Source: Thermoleophilia bacterium (lineage in GTDB: Bacteria; Actinomycetota; Thermoleophilia; BMS3ABIN01). From it: DNA of 64,000 bases. Where the stretch lies: contig JBAZZU010000002.1 of assembly GCA_041658605.1 (NCBI GenBank), forward strand, positions 1,477 through 65,476, read 5' to 3'. This document shows, one piece after another, positions 5,652-15,758 of this stretch; position 1 is the stretch's first letter, and the number at the start of each line of letters is the position of its first letter. The notes beneath the pieces are model-generated. The model saw nothing but the letters and a program-made list of their open reading frames with translations, did no database searches and was not told the DNA's origin. Made by a program: the position numbers and the translations under genes.

Positions 5652-6418
5652 AACGTTTTCGCGCCACATACATAATCTGGCTGCGCGACCTCAAGCGGCA
5701 TTTTCGGGACCGCGCCCGCATATTCGGCTCGCTGGCCACCCCGATCATCTTTATTTTCATACTGGGGCAGGGGCTGGGTTCCTCCATCAGCGGCGGCATC
5801 CCCGCAGCCGGCGGCGCCCTGGACTACAAGACCTTCATGTTCCCGGGTATCCTGGGGATGACGGTGCTTTTTGCAGGTGTATTCTCGGCCGTCTCCATCG
5901 TCTGGGACCGTGAGTTCGGCTTCCTCAAGGAGATGCTGGTGGCGCCGGTTCCCAGCTGGAGTATCGCCCTCGGCAAAGTGATAAGCGGCGCCACGATAGC
6001 TTCGTTCCAGGGCTGCCTGATGCTTATTCTGGCCCCATTCGCCGGGGTCAGCCTGTCGCCGCTGATGATCGCCAAACTGTTGCCGACGCTCTTTCTGGTC
6101 TCGTTCTCGATGACCGGCATGGGGGTGCTGGTGGCTACGCGGCTTAAGAGCATGCAGGGCTTTCAGATGATAATGAACTTCATCATGATGCCGATGTTCT
6201 TCCTCTCCGGAGCCATGTTCCCGCTGGCAAACGCCCCCGCCTGGATGGACATCCTGTCGAAACTGGACCCGCTCACCTACGGGGTCGACGCGCTGCGCTC
6301 GATAATGCTAACCGATGTACCGTCACGGTATTCGTTCACAACCGACATCGCGTTGATCACGCTGATTTCCGCAGTCATGCTGACCGTTGCCATTTCCACC
6401 TTCAGCCGGCAATCATGA
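5648..6418 (+). CDS. ABC-2 type transporter permease.
   Basis: Six TM segments with the ABC-2 family pattern. The TTG start overlaps the ATPase stop. Confidence 0.75.
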   Translation: MKRFRATYIIWLRDLKRHFRDRARIFGSLATPIIFIFILGQGLGSSISGGIPAAGGALDYKTFMFPGILGMTVLFAGVFSAVSIVWDREFGFLKEMLVAPVPSWSIALGKVISGATIASFQGCLMLILAPFAGVSLSPLMIAKLLPTLFLVSFSMTGMGVLVATRLKSMQGFQMIMNFIMMPMFFLSGAMFPLANAPAWMDILSKLDPLTYGVDALRSIMLTDVPSRYSFTTDIALITLISAVMLTVAISTFSRQS

Positions 6419-6440
6419 CGCAAAAAGAGCGGAGCACCTG

Positions 6441-7955
6441 ATGGGACGGCGCTCCCGCCTGCAGGCGCATCCCCGTTACCGCTGGCTGGTTCTGGTCACG
6501 GTAGCGGGTGGCATGATGATGGCGATCTTAAGCTCTTCCATCGTCAACATCGCTCTGCCGACTATAACCGCCGAGTTCGGCTCCACGATCACGACCATGA
6601 CCTGGGTGGTCACCATTTTCATGATCACGCAGGCGACGCTGATGCCGGTCTGGGGCCGCGCCGGCGATATCTACGGCCATAAGAAAATCTTCATCATCGG
6701 GCTGCTGCTTTTCTCGGCGACGTCGATCCTCTGTGCCGTCGCCTGGAATCCGTACAGCCTGATCGTCGGCCGCGCCCTGCAGGCGATCGGTTCCAGCGCC
6801 CTGGCGCCGATGGCGCTGGCTTTTGTTTTTGAAGCCTTCCCGCAGAAGCATCGTGCCCAGGCGCTGGGAATCATGGGCGGGGTCATCGGCGCCGCGCCTG
6901 TGCTCGGACTGACGGGAGGCGGTCTGCTGGTCGAGGCCTTCGGATGGCGCAGCGTCTTTTTTATATATATCCCGCTTTGCGCCATCATCGTGCCGGCGGC
7001 GCTCTACATACTTAAGGAGTCGCCGCCGAACGAGCAGCGCGGATTCGATATCGCGGGCGCCGTGCTGCTAACCACGGGGCTCTTCAGCGGCCTGCTCGGG
7101 TTGAACCAGGGAAGAAACTGGGGCTGGAGCGATCCGCGCGTGCTCGGATGTTTCGCCCTGATGGCATTGCTGCTGTCGTTCTTTATTTTCTGGGAAAGCA
7201 GGACCCCGCGGCCGATGCTCGACCTTCAGCTGCTCAGGATCAGGTCGCTGGCGGCGGCCAATATCGCGGGCTTTTTCTCGTCGGGCGCCATGTTTGGCTC
7301 ACTTGTGCTGCTGCCGTACTTCTTCCAGTCGGTGCTCGGCGACGAGCCGGCGGCTACCGGCTTCGAGCTGGCGCCGCTGGCGCTGATGTTCGTGCTGGTA
7401 GCGCCCATCGGCGGCAGGCTGACCGCGAGGATCGGTCCGCGAAAGACGGCTTCATGCGGCCTGGCTGTCGCGGCCGCCGGTTTTGTCATCCTGGCAAGCC
7501 AGCTTTCCGCGGAGGCTTCCGCCCTGAGGCTGGGGCTCTCGATCGTGGTGCTGGGCATTGGCCTGGGCTTGACCATGGCACCGCTTACTACGGCCGCCGT
7601 TCATGACGCGCCGCTCGACAAACGCGGAATCGCCTCGTCGTTGCCGAACATGAGCCGCTTCATCGGCGGTTCGTTTGCAATCGCCATTTTCAGCACGGTG
7701 CTTTCTTCGCGTATTAGCTCACACATGCTAGCCGCCGGGATACAGGGCGACGGCATAACGGCAGGTGCGTCTTCAGGGGAAACGGATACCGCCGGCAGCG
7801 CCGCCTTTAAACAGGCGCTGTCGTCATCATTCCGGGATGTTTTCCTGTTCGCGATTTCTTTCATCGTTTTATCTTTTATATTCGTCCAGTTGATCCCCCG
7901 CTTGCGCAACGATATGGATGCCGCCCCGAAAACCATGTCAGACGACACCATGTGA
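6441..7955 (+). CDS. MFS transporter, DHA2 (14-TM) drug/H+ antiporter family.
   Basis: About 14 TM segments with the MFS motif GRxGDxxGxKK. I prefer the ATG at 6441, which has an RBS, over the track start at 6387 that overlaps the permease. Confidence 0.75.
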   Translation: MGRRSRLQAHPRYRWLVLVTVAGGMMMAILSSSIVNIALPTITAEFGSTITTMTWVVTIFMITQATLMPVWGRAGDIYGHKKIFIIGLLLFSATSILCAVAWNPYSLIVGRALQAIGSSALAPMALAFVFEAFPQKHRAQALGIMGGVIGAAPVLGLTGGGLLVEAFGWRSVFFIYIPLCAIIVPAALYILKESPPNEQRGFDIAGAVLLTTGLFSGLLGLNQGRNWGWSDPRVLGCFALMALLLSFFIFWESRTPRPMLDLQLLRIRSLAAANIAGFFSSGAMFGSLVLLPYFFQSVLGDEPAATGFELAPLALMFVLVAPIGGRLTARIGPRKTASCGLAVAAAGFVILASQLSAEASALRLGLSIVVLGIGLGLTMAPLTTAAVHDAPLDKRGIASSLPNMSRFIGGSFAIAIFSTVLSSRISSHMLAAGIQGDGITAGASSGETDTAGSAAFKQALSSSFRDVFLFAISFIVLSFIFVQLIPRLRNDMDAAPKTMSDDTM

Positions 7956-8371: not shown

Positions 8372-9679
8372 TTACCCGAAGATACTGGTCACAACCAGCA
8401 GCAGGCTCAGTATGATCAAACCCGCGGTCGTCAGGCCGGCGACCACGTTATGCCTCCTGCTGTTGGCGTACTCGCCCATGATTCCCTTGTCGTTAATTAT
8501 GATCATCACGAATATCAATATGAGCGGAAGCAGGATTCCGTTCACGTCCTGCGCCAGGACCATGATCTTCAATAGCGGCAGGTTGGGGATGAGCGCGACC
8601 CCGGCGCCGATGACGATTGATGCCGTAAAGAGACCGTGGAAGATGGGCGCTTCCCTAAAGGAGCGGTTAACGCCCGACTCGAAACCGAAGGCCTCACAGA
8701 TTGCGTAGGCCGTGGCCAGGGGCAGGATACATGCGGCCAGCACTGACGCGTTGAGCAGTCCGAAGGCGAAAAGCCTTGATGCCCACTCCCCCGCCAGCGG
8801 GACAAGCGCCTCGGCCGCCTGCTCGGCACTGTCTACATCCCCCCCAGTTGCGTGGATCGTAGCCGCGCAGGAAATGATGATGAACAGCGCCACCAGGTCA
8901 GTGATTACGGCCCCCATTATCACCTCTGCTTTTGTATAGCGGAAATGCTTGATCGAGATGCCTTTATCCACCACGTAGGCCTGGATAAAGAACTGGCCCC
9001 AGGGGGTGATGGTGGTGCCGATTACGGCGATGAAGAGCAGGATATAGCCGGCGTTCATCTCAAACGATGGCACCACCGTGCTGTGCAGCGCCTCGCCCCA
9101 GTCCGGGTGGGCCATGAAACCCGACACAACGTACGCGAGGTAAAAACTGGAGAAGACAAGGAAGGCCCGCTCGGCGATCTTGTAGGAGCCGCGCACGACC
9201 AGCAGCCAGATGAAGACGGCCACGAACGGCACCGTGTAATACTTGGACGCCCCGAATAGCTGAAAGCTCGATGCGATGCCGGAGAACTCGGAGATGGTCG
9301 TTCCCAGGTTCGCCACCAGCATCGCCGCCATCGCGAACAGGGTCAGTTTCAGCCGGAAGCGTTCACGGATCAGCGCCGCCAGCCCCTGGCCGGTCACCAC
9401 TCCCATGCGCGCACCCATCTCCTGGGTGACCGCTAGGCTGAACGTTATCAGCAGCAGCATCCACAACATGCTGTAGCCGAAACGCCCGCCCGCCATGGAA
9501 TATGTGGCGATGCCGCCGGCGTCGTTGTCGGCGTTGGCGGTGATCAGGCCCGGGCCCAGGATTGACAGAAACAGCAGCAGGCGCGTCCTGCCGATGCGCG
9601 GCAGCCGTGGCATGCGGGGGGTGGGGAGACGTGAAAGCCGCCTGCGGCCGATGCGGTGAAATGCTCTGAGGCGGCGCAT
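8372..9679 (-). CDS. NRAMP-family divalent cation transporter, NRMT-like (Mg2+-type signature).
   Basis: GPG...FGY core with 11-12 TM segments. The DPGN motif is replaced by DAGG, and the TM6 MPH motif reads TIH, so the methionine is missing. The gene is downstream of an M-box riboswitch. Confidence 0.8.
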   Translation of the reverse strand: MRRLRAFHRIGRRRLSRLPTPRMPRLPRIGRTRLLLFLSILGPGLITANADNDAGGIATYSMAGGRFGYSMLWMLLLITFSLAVTQEMGARMGVVTGQGLAALIRERFRLKLTLFAMAAMLVANLGTTISEFSGIASSFQLFGASKYYTVPFVAVFIWLLVVRGSYKIAERAFLVFSSFYLAYVVSGFMAHPDWGEALHSTVVPSFEMNAGYILLFIAVIGTTITPWGQFFIQAYVVDKGISIKHFRYTKAEVIMGAVITDLVALFIIISCAATIHATGGDVDSAEQAAEALVPLAGEWASRLFAFGLLNASVLAACILPLATAYAICEAFGFESGVNRSFREAPIFHGLFTASIVIGAGVALIPNLPLLKIMVLAQDVNGILLPLILIFVMIIINDKGIMGEYANSRRHNVVAGLTTAGLIILSLLLVVTSIFG

Positions 9680-9694
9680 GAAGTTAACTTAAGA

Positions 9695-10936
9695 CTAGCC
9701 GAAAATCTTCGGCAGCCTCTTCTTCCAGCTCAGGGGGAGGATTATATCTATGGCGTCATCGACGGTGACTATCCCGCGCAGCACGTTTTCCCCGTCGGTT
9801 ATCGGCAGCGCCAGCAGGTTGTATTTGGCGACCACATGGGCTACTTCGTCCAGCGATGCGTCGGCGCGCATGCTGATGAGGTGATGCTCCATGAATTCCT
9901 CGACCTTCTGGTCGCGTCGGGCCAGGATCAGGTCGCGTAGCGAGAAGACTCCCGCGAGATGGCCGTCGTCATCGACGACGTAGATGTAATAGATGGTCTC
10001 GGCGTCCGGTTCCAGCTCACGCAGGCGGCCGATGGCCTGGCCGGCAGTCATCCCCGGAGGCACTGAAACGAATTCGGTGGTCATTACACCGCCGGCTGTG
10101 TCCTCCTCGTACCTGAGCAGGTGCTGGACGTCCCGCGCCTCTTTCGTCCTCATCGAGGCCAGCAGCGACGCGGCTTTTTCCTCCGGCAGGTCGGCCAGCA
10201 GGTCGGCTGCGTCATCCGGGTCCATGTTGGAGAGGATAGTCGCCGCTTTCTTTTCGTCCATGTCATTGAGCAGGATGGCCTGTAAGTTCGGGTGCATCTC
10301 CTCGACCGTGTCGGCCGCGACCTCGTCCTCGAGCGCTTCGACGACCGCGACCCGCTCTTCAGGAGAAAGCTCGTTGGCGATGTCGGCGATATCGGCCGGA
10401 TGGAGCAAAGCCAGTTTGTCGTGGGTCAGCTGAAGCTTCATGCCGCTGGATTCACCACTGACAGGCTCGACGGTTTTCCAGTCGATCAGGCGCGGTTCCA
10501 CTCTGCGGGAAAACCGTTCTGCCAGTCTCGAGAGTCCGAGCCGGCGCATGATGGCGCCGCCCGATATGTCCACACCCACGACCCTCAGGGAACCGTTAGC
10601 GCGCGCAAGCTGCAGGTCGTTGACACGGATGAGCTTGTGGCCCTCGGTATCGACTATCTGCTTGTCGAGGATGTCTCCAGCCAGGAAGATCTCGCCCTCG
10701 CCGGGTTCGACCGCCTCAAGCTGGTCGAGCGGCAGGCGCAGCAGCGTCTGGGATTCCTCAAAATTGCGCACCAGCTCCCAGGGCAGCAGTATTTTCTTGC
10801 GCCCCTGTTTTACCACCAGCTTTGTGGCCGAGGGATACTTGCGCTTGATGGTCACCACTATGTCGTCGAGCACGCCCACAGTGCGGGATCTCGAGTCCTT
10901 GACCTGCTGTCCCAGGATCTTGCTGAGAAAAAACAC
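9695..10936 (-). CDS. MgtE N-terminal domain plus CBS-pair protein without a membrane domain. An N-terminal PRC-barrel-like region is present.
   Basis: MgtE_N helical repeats followed by two CBS domains, with no TM segment. The GTG start at about 10936 has a GGAGGT RBS, which is why I trim the track start at 11068. Confidence 0.7.
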   Translation of the reverse strand: MFFLSKILGQQVKDSRSRTVGVLDDIVVTIKRKYPSATKLVVKQGRKKILLPWELVRNFEESQTLLRLPLDQLEAVEPGEGEIFLAGDILDKQIVDTEGHKLIRVNDLQLARANGSLRVVGVDISGGAIMRRLGLSRLAERFSRRVEPRLIDWKTVEPVSGESSGMKLQLTHDKLALLHPADIADIANELSPEERVAVVEALEDEVAADTVEEMHPNLQAILLNDMDEKKAATILSNMDPDDAADLLADLPEEKAASLLASMRTKEARDVQHLLRYEEDTAGGVMTTEFVSVPPGMTAGQAIGRLRELEPDAETIYYIYVVDDDGHLAGVFSLRDLILARRDQKVEEFMEHHLISMRADASLDEVAHVVAKYNLLALPITDGENVLRGIVTVDDAIDIILPLSWKKRLPKIFG

Positions 10937-10956
10937 GGTTATTACCTCCGGCCAAT

Positions 10957-11240
10957 AAAAAAACCTTCCCCAAAGGGAAGGTTTGCATGCGCACGAAAAC
11001 GTCACTGTCCGGCGCTTATGGATTTGCAGCCTTATCCAAAGCACTACGGCAGTACCGTCTACAGTCACATGGCCTTCCCCAACTCATACAAGCTTTGGCA
11101 CAGCGCATCGTAGAGATTTCTCTCAGCCGTTTCGGGCAAAACCTTATGCCGGTAATGCCTGTTCTACCCGTTGGGGTCTTTGGACCTTTCCGGGCAACGG
11201 CCTGTGTCCGCGCTGGAGCCTCACCTAACGAGGATTAGCT
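10957..11240 (-). ncRNA. M-box (ykoK-leader) Mg2+ riboswitch with its terminator expression platform.
   Basis: The minus strand reads CGUUAGGUGAGGCUCC...UUGCCCGGAAAGGUCCAAAGACCCCAACGGGU...CAUAAGGUU...GUGCCAAAGCUUG, which matches the conserved M-box segments. The terminator CCUUCCC-UUUG-GGGAAGG plus U7 at 10985-10957 lies about 20 nt before the gene start. Confidence 0.8.
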
Positions 11241-11347
11241 ATGTACCAGTAAACTAGACCCGCGCGGGGGGGATTGTCAAGCCTGAAGGCGGTGCTGCCT
11301 GTTGACGTGTGACTGCTGATGGCGGCCGTCTCTGATAAAATCAAAGC

Positions 11348-12064
11348 ATGATGGATAATGGCGAAGTGCCCGCACGCATACTGGTTGTTGAAGACGATGA
11401 GAGCATCTCCGAGGCGATTGTTTTCAGCCTTGGAAAGAAGGGCTTCCGCTGCCTGGCCGCGGCCGATGGTCTGGAGGGTCTGCGGCTGCTGCGGCGTGAA
11501 AAACCCGACCTTATGATTCTGGATCTCATGCTTCCCGGCCTTGATGGCTGGAAGCTGTGCGAGACGGTCCGGCAGGAGGGATACAGCCTTCCCATAATCG
11601 TGGTGAGCGCCCGCACAAGCGAATTCGACAAGGTGCAAGTCCTGTCGCTCGGGGCGGATGATTATCTGACAAAGCCTTTCGGCATGGGCGAGCTTGTGGC
11701 CAGGGTGCAGGCCAACCTGCGGCGCGCTTCGCGTTCGGAGGTTGCGCCTCAAGGCATCGTCGAGGCTGGTCCGCTGGTTGTTGACCCCGACAGAAAGGAA
11801 GCCTTCAGCAGAGATGAACCGCTGGAGCTGACCTCCAGGGAATTCGCGGTGCTTTATCTATTGGCGAAGTCGGCCCCGCTTGTGATTTCCAGGGAAGATA
11901 TTTACAAGGCTGTCTGGGGGTACGAGATGATGCACGGTGACCGTTCTGTGGATGTCTTTGTCAGAAGAATAAGGAAGAAGATAGCCGCTGGTATCCAAGG
12001 GTATACTTTCGTACAGACCCACTATGGTTTCGGTTACAAGTTCGAGGCAAGGAAGACAGACTGA
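11348..12064 (+). CDS. OmpR/PhoB-family response regulator.
   Basis: Receiver domain (the D at LMILDLMLPG, KPF) followed by a winged-helix domain containing GYKF. Confidence 0.9.
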   Translation: MMDNGEVPARILVVEDDESISEAIVFSLGKKGFRCLAAADGLEGLRLLRREKPDLMILDLMLPGLDGWKLCETVRQEGYSLPIIVVSARTSEFDKVQVLSLGADDYLTKPFGMGELVARVQANLRRASRSEVAPQGIVEAGPLVVDPDRKEAFSRDEPLELTSREFAVLYLLAKSAPLVISREDIYKAVWGYEMMHGDRSVDVFVRRIRKKIAAGIQGYTFVQTHYGFGYKFEARKTD

Positions 12065-12136
12065 AGCTTCAGTCTGAGCGGCATCAGGGGCAGAGTTCGA
12101 TGATTTCTGCCCATCTGACAGGATCGCTGCGTCGGC

Positions 12137-13390
<1,254 letters not shown>

Positions 13391-13417
13391 AACGGCGCTG
13401 CTGGCAACCTGAAGCCG

Positions 13418-14113
13418 CTATTCGCCAAAACGCTTGTCGGGTTCGTTGTCAAAATACCTTCCATCGAGTTTGCCGGTAACGAGAAAATCTATACGCGCCC
13501 CCATATCCACGACCTGGTCGGCTATGCGCTCGATATAGCGGCTTGCCAGCGCGATATGAGTAGCCCATTCGGTTGATTCAACCGCCTCCAATTCTCCCTT
13601 GGGGTGTAAAAGCCGCGTAAGGATCTCCTTGTACATCTCATCGATGGGCTCATCGATCTCGACCAGGGAATTAGCCAGCCGCGCATCGCGGTCCGCGAAA
13701 GCCTTGATGCCCTGGCGCAATACTTCGAGGGCCTGCGCCGACATCTTGCCCAGTAGCTCCAGATAGGGCTCCGCCGCCTCGGTGCGCTCCAGGCGTTTGG
13801 CTATCTTGGCTATGTTGACAGCCAGGTCACCGACGCGCTCCAGGTGCAGGCTCACCAGCAGGCAGGTGTGGAGCAGCCGCAGGTCACGCGCCACCGGCTG
13901 TTGCTGTGCCTGCAGGGCCAGGCAGTTGCCTTCGATCCTGAGCGTCAGCTCGTTGATGTCATCATCCCCGGCGATAACGGAGTTCGCCAGCGAGCGGTCA
14001 CTTTTCAGCAGCGCCTGCGTCGAGAGGTCGACGGCCTCGACTACCAGGCTCGCTTCGCGCAGGATCTCCTCGTTAAGCTGTTTCAGCCCTTCATGAAAAG
14101 ACTGTCTGGTCAT
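13418..14113 (-). CDS. phoU: Phosphate signalling complex protein PhoU.
   Basis: Duplicated PhoU domain, 231 aa. Confidence 0.9.
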   Translation of the reverse strand: MTRQSFHEGLKQLNEEILREASLVVEAVDLSTQALLKSDRSLANSVIAGDDDINELTLRIEGNCLALQAQQQPVARDLRLLHTCLLVSLHLERVGDLAVNIAKIAKRLERTEAAEPYLELLGKMSAQALEVLRQGIKAFADRDARLANSLVEIDEPIDEMYKEILTRLLHPKGELEAVESTEWATHIALASRYIERIADQVVDMGARIDFLVTGKLDGRYFDNEPDKRFGE

Positions 14114-14115
14114 GG

Positions 14116-14898
14116 TTAACCGAACCTTCCCGTGATGTAATTTTCAGTTTCCTTGCGGTCTGGCATTGTGAAGATCTTGCTTGTAGGTCCATATTCCACG
14201 AGCCGCCCCGGCTCCCCTGTCTCCGTGATCAGCATAAAGCCTGTAAACTGCGAGACCCTGGCGGCCTGTTGCATGTTGTGGGTCACTATAACAATGGTGT
14301 AATTCTCCTTGAGTCTGTCCATCGTGTCCTCGATCTGTTGTGTCGCCACAGGGTCCAGGGCAGAACATGGTTCGTCCATCAGGATAACTTCGGGTTCCAC
14401 CGCCAGCGTCCGGGCGATGCAGAGCCGCTGCTGCTGGCCGCCGGAAAGCTCCAGAGCGGAATGCTTGAGCTTATTCTTTACTTCCTTCCAGAGAGCCGCC
14501 TGCCTGAGAGCTTTCTCAACTATGCCGTCCAGTTCGTCATTGCTCCTTCTGCCCTGGATGCGTGGTCCGTAAGCCACATTATCGTAAATTGATTTGGGGA
14601 ACGGATTCGGCTTCTGGAATATCTCCCCGACACGGGAACGCAGCTCGACGACATCGACATCGGCCGCATAGATATCCTTTCCGTCCAGCAGAACGCTGCC
14701 CTCGACCCTGGTTTTCCCCATAACTTCGTGCATGCGATTCATCAATCTGAGCACCGTGGACTTGCCGCAGCCGGAAGGGCCGATCAGTGCCGTGACCTGG
14801 TTAGGCTCGATATCGAGGTTGATGTCCTCAAGAGCCTTAAAACTGCCGTAGTAGAAATTCACCCCATGAAGCTGCGCCTTTTTTTGAAGCTCTGCCGT
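14116..14898 (-). CDS. pstB: Phosphate ABC transporter ATP-binding protein PstB.
   Basis: Walker [10 protein letters not shown], signature LSGGQQQRL and the PstB-specific N-terminus. The likely start is the GTG overlapping the pstA stop; the track start extends into pstA. Confidence 0.9.
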
Positions 14899-14900
14899 TT

Positions 14901-15758
14901 TTACCACCTTTTCTTTCTCCGAAAACGGGCACGAATTATCGCAGCCGTTAGCGTAAACATCAGGACCAGTAACAAAAGTACCAGTGCCGTACCCCATTTT
15001 ATCTCATCGGGCATGCCTGGCACCTGTGTGGAAATCGTGTAGAGATGGTATGGCAGGGCCATCGCCTGGCTGAATGGTGAGTCAGGCAGCGTGGGCAGGA
15101 AGAAGGCGGCGACGGTGAACATTATCGCGGCTGTCTCTCCGGCGGCGCGTCCCACCGCCAGGACCGTACCTGTGATTATGCCGGGGACGGCGTTTGGGAG
15201 GACCACGCGCCGTATCGTCTGCCAGCGTGTAGCGCCCAGCGCCAGTGAAGCCTGGCGGAAAGACTGGGGCACGGCGAGCAGCGCCTCTTCGGCCGCGGTG
15301 ATGACAACCGGCAGCACCAGCAGCCCCAGCGTCAGCGAGCCCGAGAGCAGCGAGGTCCCGAATTGCATCAGCAGCACGAACAGGCCCAGGCCGAACAGTC
15401 CATAGACAACCGATGGTACGCCGGCCATGTTGGCGATCGCCAGCCTGATCGCCCGGGTGAGCCGGCCCTGGGTGGCGTACTCGGTCAGGTATACGGCCGC
15501 CAGCGTCCCAACGGGAACCGCGAAGACTATGGTGCCGAGAACCAGGTAGAAGGTACCGACGATTGCCGGGAAGATGCCACCGGCCTTCATGCCGTTCCTT
15601 GGCATTTCGGTCAGGAATTCCAGCGTGATGGCCGGTGCACCCTTGATGACAAGAAAAATGATGATGGCGATGACCGGCGCCACGGCGATGGCGGTCAGCA
15701 GCGCCATAAGGCCGTGCGCCGCTTTTTCATAAACAAGCTGCTTGCGGTGGCCGGCCAT
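14901..15758 (-). CDS. pstA: Phosphate ABC transporter permease PstA.
   Basis: Six TM segments with an EAA-like motif, in operon position. Confidence 0.85.

What the first reader, a model, noticed from the sequence alone, without database searches (positions are those of the whole stretch)
10957..11240. M-box Mg2+ riboswitch on the minus strand, explaining the 350-bp 'empty' region
The region 10990-11340 has only weak, implausible ORFs. Its minus strand reads CGUUAGGUGAGGCUCC...GUUGCCCGGAAAGGUCCAAAGACCCCAACGGGUAGAAC...GGCAUAAGGUU...GUGCCAAAGCUUGUAUGAG. This matches the conserved blocks of the ykoK/M-box aptamer: GUUAGGUGAGGCUCCU, GCCC..AAA.GUCCAAAGAC.C.AAUGGGU, CAUAAGGUG and GUGCUAAAGCUC.

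An intrinsic terminator CCUUCCC-UUUG-GGGAAGG plus U7 lies at 10985-10957, only about 20 nt before the RBS and GTG of the downstream gene. That is the classic riboswitch expression platform. A TTGACA -35-like element lies at about 11280-11275 on the minus strand.
Basis: partly seen in the sequence, partly recalled or inferred. Interest (0 to 1): 0.7.

Follow-up and report, generated by a model that had tools for sequence, protein, structure and literature searches.

The report
Ordinary M-box magnesium riboswitch, confirmed
The "empty" stretch is the leader RNA of a textbook magnesium-sensing (M-box) riboswitch that most likely switches off, by premature transcription termination, a two-gene magnesium-uptake operon; the call is correct, but this arrangement has already been described.

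Summary
Rfam's M-box model RF00380 matches window 11239-11071 (minus strand) over its full length. The score is 139.5 bits against a gathering score of 44, with E = 2e-31, and it is the only Rfam hit in the 64 kb. A 10-bp hairpin plus U7 (10984-10957) lies 8 nt before a GGAGG ribosome-binding site and 20 nt before the GTG start at 10936. The 3' strand of aptamer helix P1 (GGGGAAGG, 11080-11073) is complementary to the 5' strand of the terminator (CCUUCCC, 10981-10975). P1, antiterminator and terminator are therefore mutually exclusive, as in the classic Mg2+ OFF switch. The operon encodes a soluble PRC/MgtE_N/CBS protein and an Nramp-related Mg2+ transporter, which matches EleNRMT (PDB 7QIA) at E = 7e-119. 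Of 80 homologous loci, 24 carry an M-box in the same place, mostly Thermoleophilia and other Actinomycetota MAGs. In the closest clade the terminator/antiterminator logic and a TTGACA/TAnnTT promoter are conserved. Shin et al. 2014 already described M-box -> MgtE-fragment -> nrmT operons. The finding is real, well supported and ordinary. Mg2+ response and termination are inferred, not measured.

The parts
11275..11280 (-). -35 hexamer TTGACA of the leader promoter
   Evidence: Read. CTTGAC is invariant in 9 of 9 related leaders while the flanks diverge. Function is inferred.
11251..11256 (-). -10-like hexamer TAGTTT (18-nt spacer); the inferred transcription start is near 11244
   Evidence: Read. 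TAnnTT is conserved at a 17-18 nt spacing in relatives. It was not called by the consensus scan. The start site is inferred.
11071..11239 (-). M-box (ykoK-type) Mg2+ riboswitch aptamer, RF00380
   Evidence: 139.5 bits, E = 2e-31, full model. 54 of 60 conserved positions and 44 of 46 pairs are kept. Covariation is seen in relatives.
11228..11235 (-). 5' strand of aptamer helix P1 (AUCCUCGU)
   Evidence: CM alignment.
11073..11080 (-). GGGGAAGG: 3' strand of P1 and also the 5' strand of the antiterminator (the switching sequence)
   Evidence: It is paired in P1 in the CM alignment. It pairs with CCUUCCC in the MFE fold of the nascent transcript ending at 10975 or 10971. The duplex energy is -14.4 kcal/mol.
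10986..11070 (-). Structured spacer hairpin enclosed by the antiterminator helix
   Evidence: MFE -32.1 kcal/mol, z = -2.9, with 1 of 200 shuffles folding as well. There is one compensatory U-A to C-G change against L001, and the substitutions concentrate in the apical loop. Relatives have unrelated hairpins in the same place.
10957..10984 (-). Intrinsic terminator: 10-bp stem, UUUG loop, U7 tail. Its 5' strand (10981-10975) is the 3' strand of the antiterminator.
   Evidence: Conserved, with complementarity to the P1 3' strand, in L001-L012 and L014.
10945..10949 (-). Ribosome-binding site GGAGG
   Evidence: 8 nt before the GTG.
9695..10936 (-). Gene 1: soluble PRC-barrel + MgtE_N + 2xCBS protein (413 aa), with no membrane domain
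   Evidence: Pfam matches. MgtE cytosolic domain 2YVY at E = 3e-42. The same gene call appears on a public contig.
8372..9679 (-). Gene 2: Nramp-related Mg2+ transporter (NrmT/NRMT type, 435 aa), 15 nt after gene 1
   Evidence: Pfam Nramp at E = 1e-96. EleNRMT 7QIA at E = 7e-119. It has DAGG and GTTITPW in place of DPGN and A..MPH.

Best explanation
Window 11244-10937 (minus strand) is the roughly 308-nt leader of a two-gene operon. The genes are an mgtE-N/CBS-like gene and nrmT. The leader carries a canonical M-box Mg2+ riboswitch that acts as a transcriptional OFF switch.

At high cytoplasmic Mg2+ the aptamer compacts and holds helix P1 closed (UCCUC 11234-11230 paired with GGGGA 11080-11076). 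CCUUCCC (10981-10975) is then free to pair with the downstream GGGAAGG. The terminator hairpin plus U7 forms, and RNA polymerase stops about 20 nt before the start codon.

At low Mg2+ P1 opens. GGGGAAGG (11080-11073) pairs instead with CCUUCCC, closing over an 85-nt spacer hairpin. This antiterminator blocks the terminator, and the Mg2+ importer operon is transcribed.

Shown here: the identity of the aptamer, the three mutually exclusive helices, their conservation, and the identity of the genes. Inferred: Mg2+ as the ligand in vivo, the promoter and transcription start, and actual termination.
For: - RF00380 matches at full length: 139.5 bits against a gathering score of 44, E = 2e-31. 54 of 60 conserved positions and 44 of 46 pairs are kept.
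- 17 of 42 consensus pairs show compensatory changes in 19 aptamers.
- A terminator-like site is called at 10984-10961 with a T-run.
- The nascent-transcript MFE (3' end at 10975 or 10971) forms the GGGGAAGG/CCUUCCC antiterminator. The full-length MFE forms the terminator.
- The two states are nearly isoenergetic without any tertiary Mg2+ term: -110.4 kcal/mol with the antiterminator forced, and -111.9 to -114.4 with the terminator.
- The same terminator, with a 5' strand complementary to the P1 3' strand, is present in L001-L012 and L014.
- An M-box lies upstream of the homologous gene in 24 of 80 loci.
- The promoter shows a phylogenetic footprint.
- The downstream genes are an MgtE cytosolic-domain homologue and a close EleNRMT homologue.
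- Published work describes M-box -> MgtE-fragment -> nrmT operons, and states that most M-boxes act through an intrinsic terminator (PMC4072509).
Against: - There is no experimental or transcriptomic evidence for this locus.
- The -10 element is weak, matching only 3 of 6 positions of TATAAT.
- The outer part of P1 is short and weak: the duplex is -7 kcal/mol, and the CM marks an A.A mismatch and a G.U pair. Switching therefore depends on Mg2+-driven tertiary stabilisation, which the energy model cannot evaluate.
- In another actinobacterium (M. tuberculosis), an M-box works through translation and Rho rather than an intrinsic terminator (PMC12810186).
Confidence: 0.88

Rival explanations
1. 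The M-box is real but regulates mainly at the level of translation or Rho-dependent termination, as reported for the M. tuberculosis pe20 M-box. On this view the hairpin plus U7 is incidental or secondary.
For: The host lineage is Actinomycetota, where translational platforms and Rho termination are documented for an M-box. More distant relatives (L020, L021, also L015 and L017) lack a clean U-run. L020 and L021 instead show a hairpin that sequesters the SD and competes with the P1 3' strand.
Against: In this window the RBS GGAGG lies outside the switching helices, and only a weak local hairpin touches it. A strong 10-bp stem with U7 sits exactly where a terminator platform is expected. That element is conserved, with antiterminator complementarity, across the closest clade.
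Confidence: 0.06
2. The aptamer responds in vivo to another divalent cation, such as Mn2+, rather than Mg2+. This would match the fact that the transporter family also moves Mn2+.
For: EleNRMT transports Mn2+ as well as Mg2+ (PMC8806188). A related A. capsulatum transporter rescued Mn2+ rather than Mg2+ uptake. Shin et al. raised the possibility of variant specificity explicitly.
Against: The aptamer is a canonical, high-scoring M-box with 54 of 60 conserved positions unchanged. In the Shin et al. phylogenetic tree, all M-box-regulated Nramp homologues clustered in one branch. The two C. acetobutylicum genes they tested rescued growth of a Mg2+-transport-deficient strain, one fully and one only at low-millimolar Mg2+.
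Confidence: 0.04
3. The match is a decayed or non-functional relic, or a chance similarity, and the region is simply a long divergent intergenic spacer.
For: None beyond the absence of experimental data.
Against: E = 2e-31. The aptamer, promoter and terminator are conserved in relatives whose flanking leader sequence has diverged, and the aptamer shows compensatory base-pair changes.
Confidence: 0.01

Closest known systems
Bacillus subtilis ykoK (mgtE) M-box riboswitch, Rfam RF00380
   Same: The aptamer architecture and conserved nucleotides are the same. It is also an OFF switch built from P1, an antiterminator and an intrinsic terminator, and it lies upstream of a Mg2+ transport gene (for the published mechanism).
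   Different: The regulated genes are an MgtE-cytosolic-domain protein plus NrmT, rather than full-length MgtE. An 85-nt structured spacer hairpin sits inside the antiterminator loop. The L4-type loop reads CAAA instead of the consensus GAGA. The host is a Thermoleophilia-like actinobacterium.
M-box-regulated mgtE-fragment/nrmT operons of Clostridium acetobutylicum (Ca_c0685, Ca_c3329) and relatives (Shin et al. 2014, PMC4072509)
   Same: The order of elements is the same: M-box, then a gene for an MgtE N-terminal cytoplasmic-domain homologue, then an Nramp-related Mg2+ transporter.
   Different: The published cases were mostly Clostridia and Deltaproteobacteria; this one and its 20-odd relatives are mostly Actinomycetota. 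The accessory protein here carries an extra N-terminal region of about 170 aa with a PRC barrel, which the Bacillota homologues lack.
Mycobacterium tuberculosis pe20/rv1535 M-boxes (PMC12810186)
   Same: Both are actinobacterial M-boxes, and in both an SD-like purine run at the 3' end of the aptamer acts as the switching strand. Here GGGGAAGG is followed by a minimal AUG-UGA.
   Different: The Mtb switch uses SD sequestration of a conserved uORF plus Rho. This window has a canonical intrinsic terminator and no conserved uORF.
EleNRMT, the Eggerthella lenta Nramp-related Mg2+ transporter (PDB 7QIA; PMC8806188)
   Same: Gene 2 aligns over residues 33-435 at E = 7e-119. It keeps the TM1 sequence D-A-G-G and the TM6 Thr equivalent to Thr224.
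   Different: The position that is Met in classical Nramps and Ala in EleNRMT is Thr here (GTTITPW). This is a common variant among the 80 loci.

Membership tests
M-box / ykoK Mg2+ riboswitch (RF00380) | Covariance-model score at or above the curated gathering score, over the full model | tested here: met
   139.5 bits against 44, model positions 1-169 of 169, E = 2.1e-31.
M-box / ykoK Mg2+ riboswitch (RF00380) | The family's helices can form, and the conserved junction and loop nucleotides are present | tested here: met
   44 of 46 model pairs are canonical or wobble, and 54 of 60 highly conserved positions are identical. The MFE fold of the aptamer alone gives the same helices.
M-box / ykoK Mg2+ riboswitch (RF00380) | The structure is maintained by compensatory substitutions in homologous leaders | tested here: met
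   17 of 42 consensus pairs have double compensatory changes among 19 aptamers.
M-box / ykoK Mg2+ riboswitch (RF00380) | Located in the 5' leader of a Mg2+ transport gene | tested here: met
   It lies upstream of the MgtE_N/CBS gene and the NRMT-type gene. The same position is seen in 24 of 80 homologous loci.
M-box / ykoK Mg2+ riboswitch (RF00380) | Expression platform with mutually exclusive terminator and antiterminator coupled to P1 | tested here: met
   Nucleotides 11080-11075 are shared by P1 and the antiterminator, and 10981-10975 by the antiterminator and the terminator.
M-box / ykoK Mg2+ riboswitch (RF00380) | Mg2+-dependent compaction and Mg2+-dependent termination | not testable with these tools
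   This needs in-line probing, SHAPE, in vitro transcription or RNA-seq.
NrmT / NRMT (Nramp-related Mg2+ transporter) | Nramp fold with the TM1 D-P-G-N motif changed to D-x-G-G, and the TM6 A-x-x-M motif changed to T-x-x-(A or other small residue) | tested here: met
   Pfam Nramp at E = 1e-96. 7QIA at E = 7e-119, with DAGG and GTTITPW. Signature residues are taken from PMC8806188.
NrmT / NRMT (Nramp-related Mg2+ transporter) | Mg2+ transport activity | not testable with these tools
   Only homology is available. One member of the wider group (A. capsulatum) was reported to favour Mn2+.
MgtE-fragment accessory protein of nrmT operons (Shin et al. 2014) | A soluble protein homologous to the MgtE N-terminal cytoplasmic domain (MgtE_N + CBS pair), lacking the MgtE membrane domain, and encoded next to nrmT | tested here: met
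   MgtE_N at E = 6e-29 and CBS at E = 3e-20, with no MgtE transmembrane-domain hit. 2YVY at E = 3e-42 over residues 173-399. The gene is 15 nt upstream of nrmT.

The most novel reading that the evidence does not exclude
The most novel reading not excluded concerns the 85-nt structured spacer (11070-10986) inside the antiterminator loop. Every close relative has a spacer there, with unrelated sequence, and in most of them its MFE fold contains a hairpin. It might be more than a passive connector: a programmed pause or timing hairpin, or a docking site for a second input. That would make the clade's M-boxes kinetically or combinatorially tuned variants. Together with the co-transcribed PRC/MgtE_N/CBS protein acting as a Mg2+-sensing gate on NrmT, the locus would then have two stacked Mg2+ feedback layers, one RNA and one protein.
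Probability: 0.1. Interest if true: 0.4.

Novelty: already known. Interest (0 to 1): 0.15.

Why it matters
The finding correctly explains a 411-bp gene-free stretch and assigns a regulatory logic to an operon in an uncultured Thermoleophilia-like actinobacterium. Expression of an Nramp-related Mg2+ importer and its MgtE-like accessory protein is predicted to be shut off by high Mg2+. That is useful for annotation.

It adds only slightly to what is known. It extends the published M-box -> mgtE-fragment -> nrmT association from Clostridia and Deltaproteobacteria to many Actinomycetota. It also shows that this lineage uses a canonical intrinsic-terminator platform, whereas M. tuberculosis uses translation and Rho. 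No open question is resolved, and a specialist would not be surprised.

Tried and rejected
1. The long ORF 11068-9695 (457 aa), which extends gene 1 through the terminator, was rejected. Homologues and the public gene call start at the GTG at 10936, after GGAGG.
2. The plus-strand ORFs 10983-11228 and 10987-11238 and the minus-strand ORF 11225-11752 overlap the aptamer or the response-regulator gene. They are not called on the public contig and were treated as spurious. They were not searched for homologues.
3. A regulatory uORF like the one in M. tuberculosis was considered. Only an AUG-UGA start-stop follows the aptamer, and nothing comparable is conserved in relatives.
4. SD sequestration as the main mechanism was considered. 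The RBS lies outside the switching helices in this window, although this mechanism seems plausible for L020 and L021.
5. The Thr at the "Met position" of the transporter was checked as a possible marker of M-box-regulated members. It does not correlate with M-box presence.
6. My first forced-antiterminator fold used coordinates shifted by 2 nt and gave a meaningless -95.1 kcal/mol. It was redone correctly, giving -110.4.
7. The consensus promoter scan found no minus-strand promoter. The promoter assignment rests on conservation instead.

Full report
**Observation.** A scan of the whole 64-kb window against all 4227 Rfam families at gathering thresholds returns a single hit. It is RF00380 (M-box, ykoK leader) at 11239-11071 (-). 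The score is 139.5 bits against a gathering score of 44, with E = 2.1e-31, covering model positions 1-169 of 169. Parsing that alignment, 54 of 60 highly conserved consensus positions are identical and 44 of 46 model base pairs are canonical or wobble. The exceptions include the L4-type loop (CAAA in place of GAGA) and the outermost P1 pair. The unconstrained MFE fold of the aptamer alone reproduces the same helices. This is far beyond chance.

**Expression platform.** A terminator-like site is called at 10984-10961 (AAACCUUCCC-UUUG-GGGAAGGUUU), and the run of seven U spans 10963-10957. The local fold is -15.7 kcal/mol. The RBS GGAGG (10949-10945) and the GTG (10936) follow 8 and 20 nt after the U tract.

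In the CM alignment the 3' strand of P1 is GGGGAA (11080-11075), paired with AUCCUC (11235-11230). The same purine run, GGGGAAGG (11080-11073), is complementary to CCUUCCC (10981-10975), which is the 5' half of the terminator. P1, antiterminator and terminator therefore share nucleotides pairwise and cannot coexist.

Folding nascent transcripts that end at 10975 or 10971, before the 3' half of the terminator exists, gives an MFE structure with the GGGGAAGG/CCUUCCC helix formed and the outer part of P1 open. The full-length leader folds with the terminator. With correct constraints, the antiterminator state is -110.4 kcal/mol and the P1-plus-terminator state is -111.9 kcal/mol, against an MFE of -114.4. 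The two states are thus nearly isoenergetic before any Mg2+-dependent tertiary stabilisation, which is what a switch needs.

Between P1 and the terminator lies an 85-nt hairpin (11070-10986). Its MFE is -32.1 kcal/mol with z = -2.9, and 1 of 200 shuffles folds as well. The antiterminator helix closes over it.

**Promoter.** After an 18-nt spacer comes TAGTTT (11256-11251). The consensus scan does not call this promoter. In an alignment of nine related leaders, however, CTTGAC is invariant and TAnnTT is kept, while the sequence further upstream is not alignable. I infer a transcription start near 11244, about 5 nt before the aptamer.

**Genes.**
- Gene 1 (10936-9695, 413 aa) has PRC, MgtE_N and two CBS domains and no membrane domain. 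It matches the cytosolic domain of Thermus MgtE (2YVY) at E = 3e-42 over residues 173-399.
- Gene 2 starts 15 nt later (9679-8372, 435 aa). It is an Nramp-family protein (E = 1e-96), and its best solved relative is the Eggerthella lenta Mg2+ transporter EleNRMT (7QIA, E = 7e-119). Classical MntH structures score only about 1e-22 to 1e-25.
- Gene 2 has DAGG where classical Nramps have DPGN, and GTTITPW where they have A..MPH. This is the NRMT-type site described in PMC8806188.
- A public assembly contig with the identical protein calls the same two genes with the same boundaries, and calls nothing in the leader.

**Relatives.** A genome-collection scan with gene 1 returned 80 loci. The closest (97% to 78% identity) are Thermoleophilia, Gaiellales or other Actinomycetota MAGs, so the window most likely comes from that lineage.

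Rfam scans of all 80 loci find an M-box on the same strand upstream of the homologue in 24 of them. These are 20 annotated as Actinomycetota-lineage MAGs (Thermoleophilia, Actinomycetes, Actinomycetota, Actinobacteria), one NC10 and three Bacillota. In 23 of the 24 it lies within about 260 nt of the homologue's start; in L078 it lies about 1.7 kb upstream. None was found in the Chloroflexota, Dormiibacterota, Margulisiibacteriota, Syntrophorhabdus or Methanocella loci. L013 and L016 lack enough upstream sequence to tell.

In a 19-sequence alignment, 17 of 42 consensus pairs show compensatory double substitutions. In the closest clade (L001-L012, L014) every leader has a GC-rich hairpin plus U-run whose 5' strand is complementary to the P1 3' strand. 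The spacer between them varies in length and sequence, and in most of these leaders its MFE fold contains a hairpin. Against L001 the spacer hairpin shows one U-A to C-G compensatory change, and its other differences cluster in the apical loop.

**Mechanism.** The best-supported reading is the classic M-box OFF switch. High Mg2+ stabilises the compact aptamer and P1, the terminator forms, and transcription stops before the operon. Low Mg2+ frees GGGGAAGG, the antiterminator forms, and the Mg2+ importer is made. The sequence elements, their exclusivity, their conservation and the gene identities are shown here. Ligand response, the start site and termination are inferred from family knowledge (PMC4072509).

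Three rivals remain:
- Translational or Rho-dependent control, as in the M. tuberculosis M-box (PMC12810186). This is unlikely to be the main mechanism here, because the RBS lies outside the switching helices and a strong conserved terminator is present.
- Response to Mn2+ rather than Mg2+. This is unlikely given the canonical aptamer.
- A non-functional relic. Conservation and covariation exclude this.

**Comparison with what is known.** Shin et al. 2014 (PMC4072509) searched for M-boxes upstream of non-canonical transporters and found them before Nramp-related genes. They showed Mg2+ transport by C. acetobutylicum NrmT. They also noted that most members of the group are accompanied by a gene for an MgtE N-terminal cytoplasmic-domain homologue, often co-transcribed under the riboswitch. 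The window is another instance of exactly this arrangement.

The differences are minor. The lineage is Actinomycetota rather than Clostridia or Deltaproteobacteria. The accessory protein has an N-terminal PRC-barrel extension. There is a structured spacer inside the antiterminator. The transporter has Thr rather than Ala at the classical Met position, a variant that is common with or without an M-box.

**Verdict.** The feature is a standard member of a curated, well-studied riboswitch family in an already published genomic context. Interest is low (0.15) and novelty is "already known". The only mildly open points are the role of the spacer hairpin and of the MgtE-like accessory protein.

Noticed in passing
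window 11065-11070 (-), just after 11073-11080: A minimal AUG-UGA start-stop follows the SD-like P1 3' strand GGGGAAGG by 2 nt. It recalls SD1 and the poorly conserved uORF1 at the end of the M. tuberculosis M-box, but nothing comparable is conserved in the relatives' leaders.
   Followed up: partly
L020:2937-3003 and L021 (leader after the aptamer); also L015 and L017: These more distant actinobacterial M-box leaders have no clean U-run terminator. In L020 a hairpin GCCUUUUCCC/GGGAGGAGGC buries the SD just before the start codon, and its 5' strand is complementary to the P1 3' strand. This looks like a translational M-box platform, a type first reported only in 2026 for M. tuberculosis.
   Followed up: partly
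L004:2858-3003 and L006:2870-3003: Two tandem terminator-like hairpins, each followed by a U-run, lie between the M-box and the gene.
   Followed up: no
L002-L006, L014, L050 (aptamer hits of 189-207 nt): These aptamers are longer than the 169-nt model. In L014 (the only one of these included in the alignment) the extra ~20 nt sit in the loop of the last hairpin before the P2 3' strand; where the insertions lie in L002-L006 and L050 was not checked.
   Followed up: no
window 10426-10936 (-), residues 1-170 of gene 1: The MgtE_N/CBS accessory protein carries an extra N-terminal region of about 170 aa with a PRC-barrel match (E = 2e-8). Bacillota homologues match only residues ~172-399, so the extension is lineage-specific. 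Its role is unknown.
   Followed up: partly
window 8372-9679 (-), TM6 motif GTTITPW: The position that is Met in classical Nramps and Ala in EleNRMT is Thr here. Among the 80 related loci, Thr and Ala (rarely Ser) are both common, independently of whether an M-box is present.
   Followed up: yes
L039, L044, L057 (Methanocella/Methanocellaceae MAGs) and L053 (Nanoarchaeia MAG): Full-length homologues of the PRC/MgtE_N/CBS protein (36-39% identity) occur in archaeal MAGs, without an M-box.
   Followed up: no
window 11348-14997: The locus next door looks phosphate-related. An OmpR-type response regulator (+, 11348-12064) is convergent with a minus-strand run of histidine kinase (13390-12137), PhoU (14113-13418) and an ABC ATPase that looks PstB-like by eye (14997-14116; not tested). 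The response-regulator gene is divergent from the riboswitch promoter, so the two promoters share about 70 bp.
   Followed up: partly
window 6387-7955 (+): A 522-aa MFS_1 transporter gene is convergent with the end of the nrmT operon. No clean minus-strand intrinsic terminator was found after nrmT (8372) by the simple scan.
   Followed up: partly
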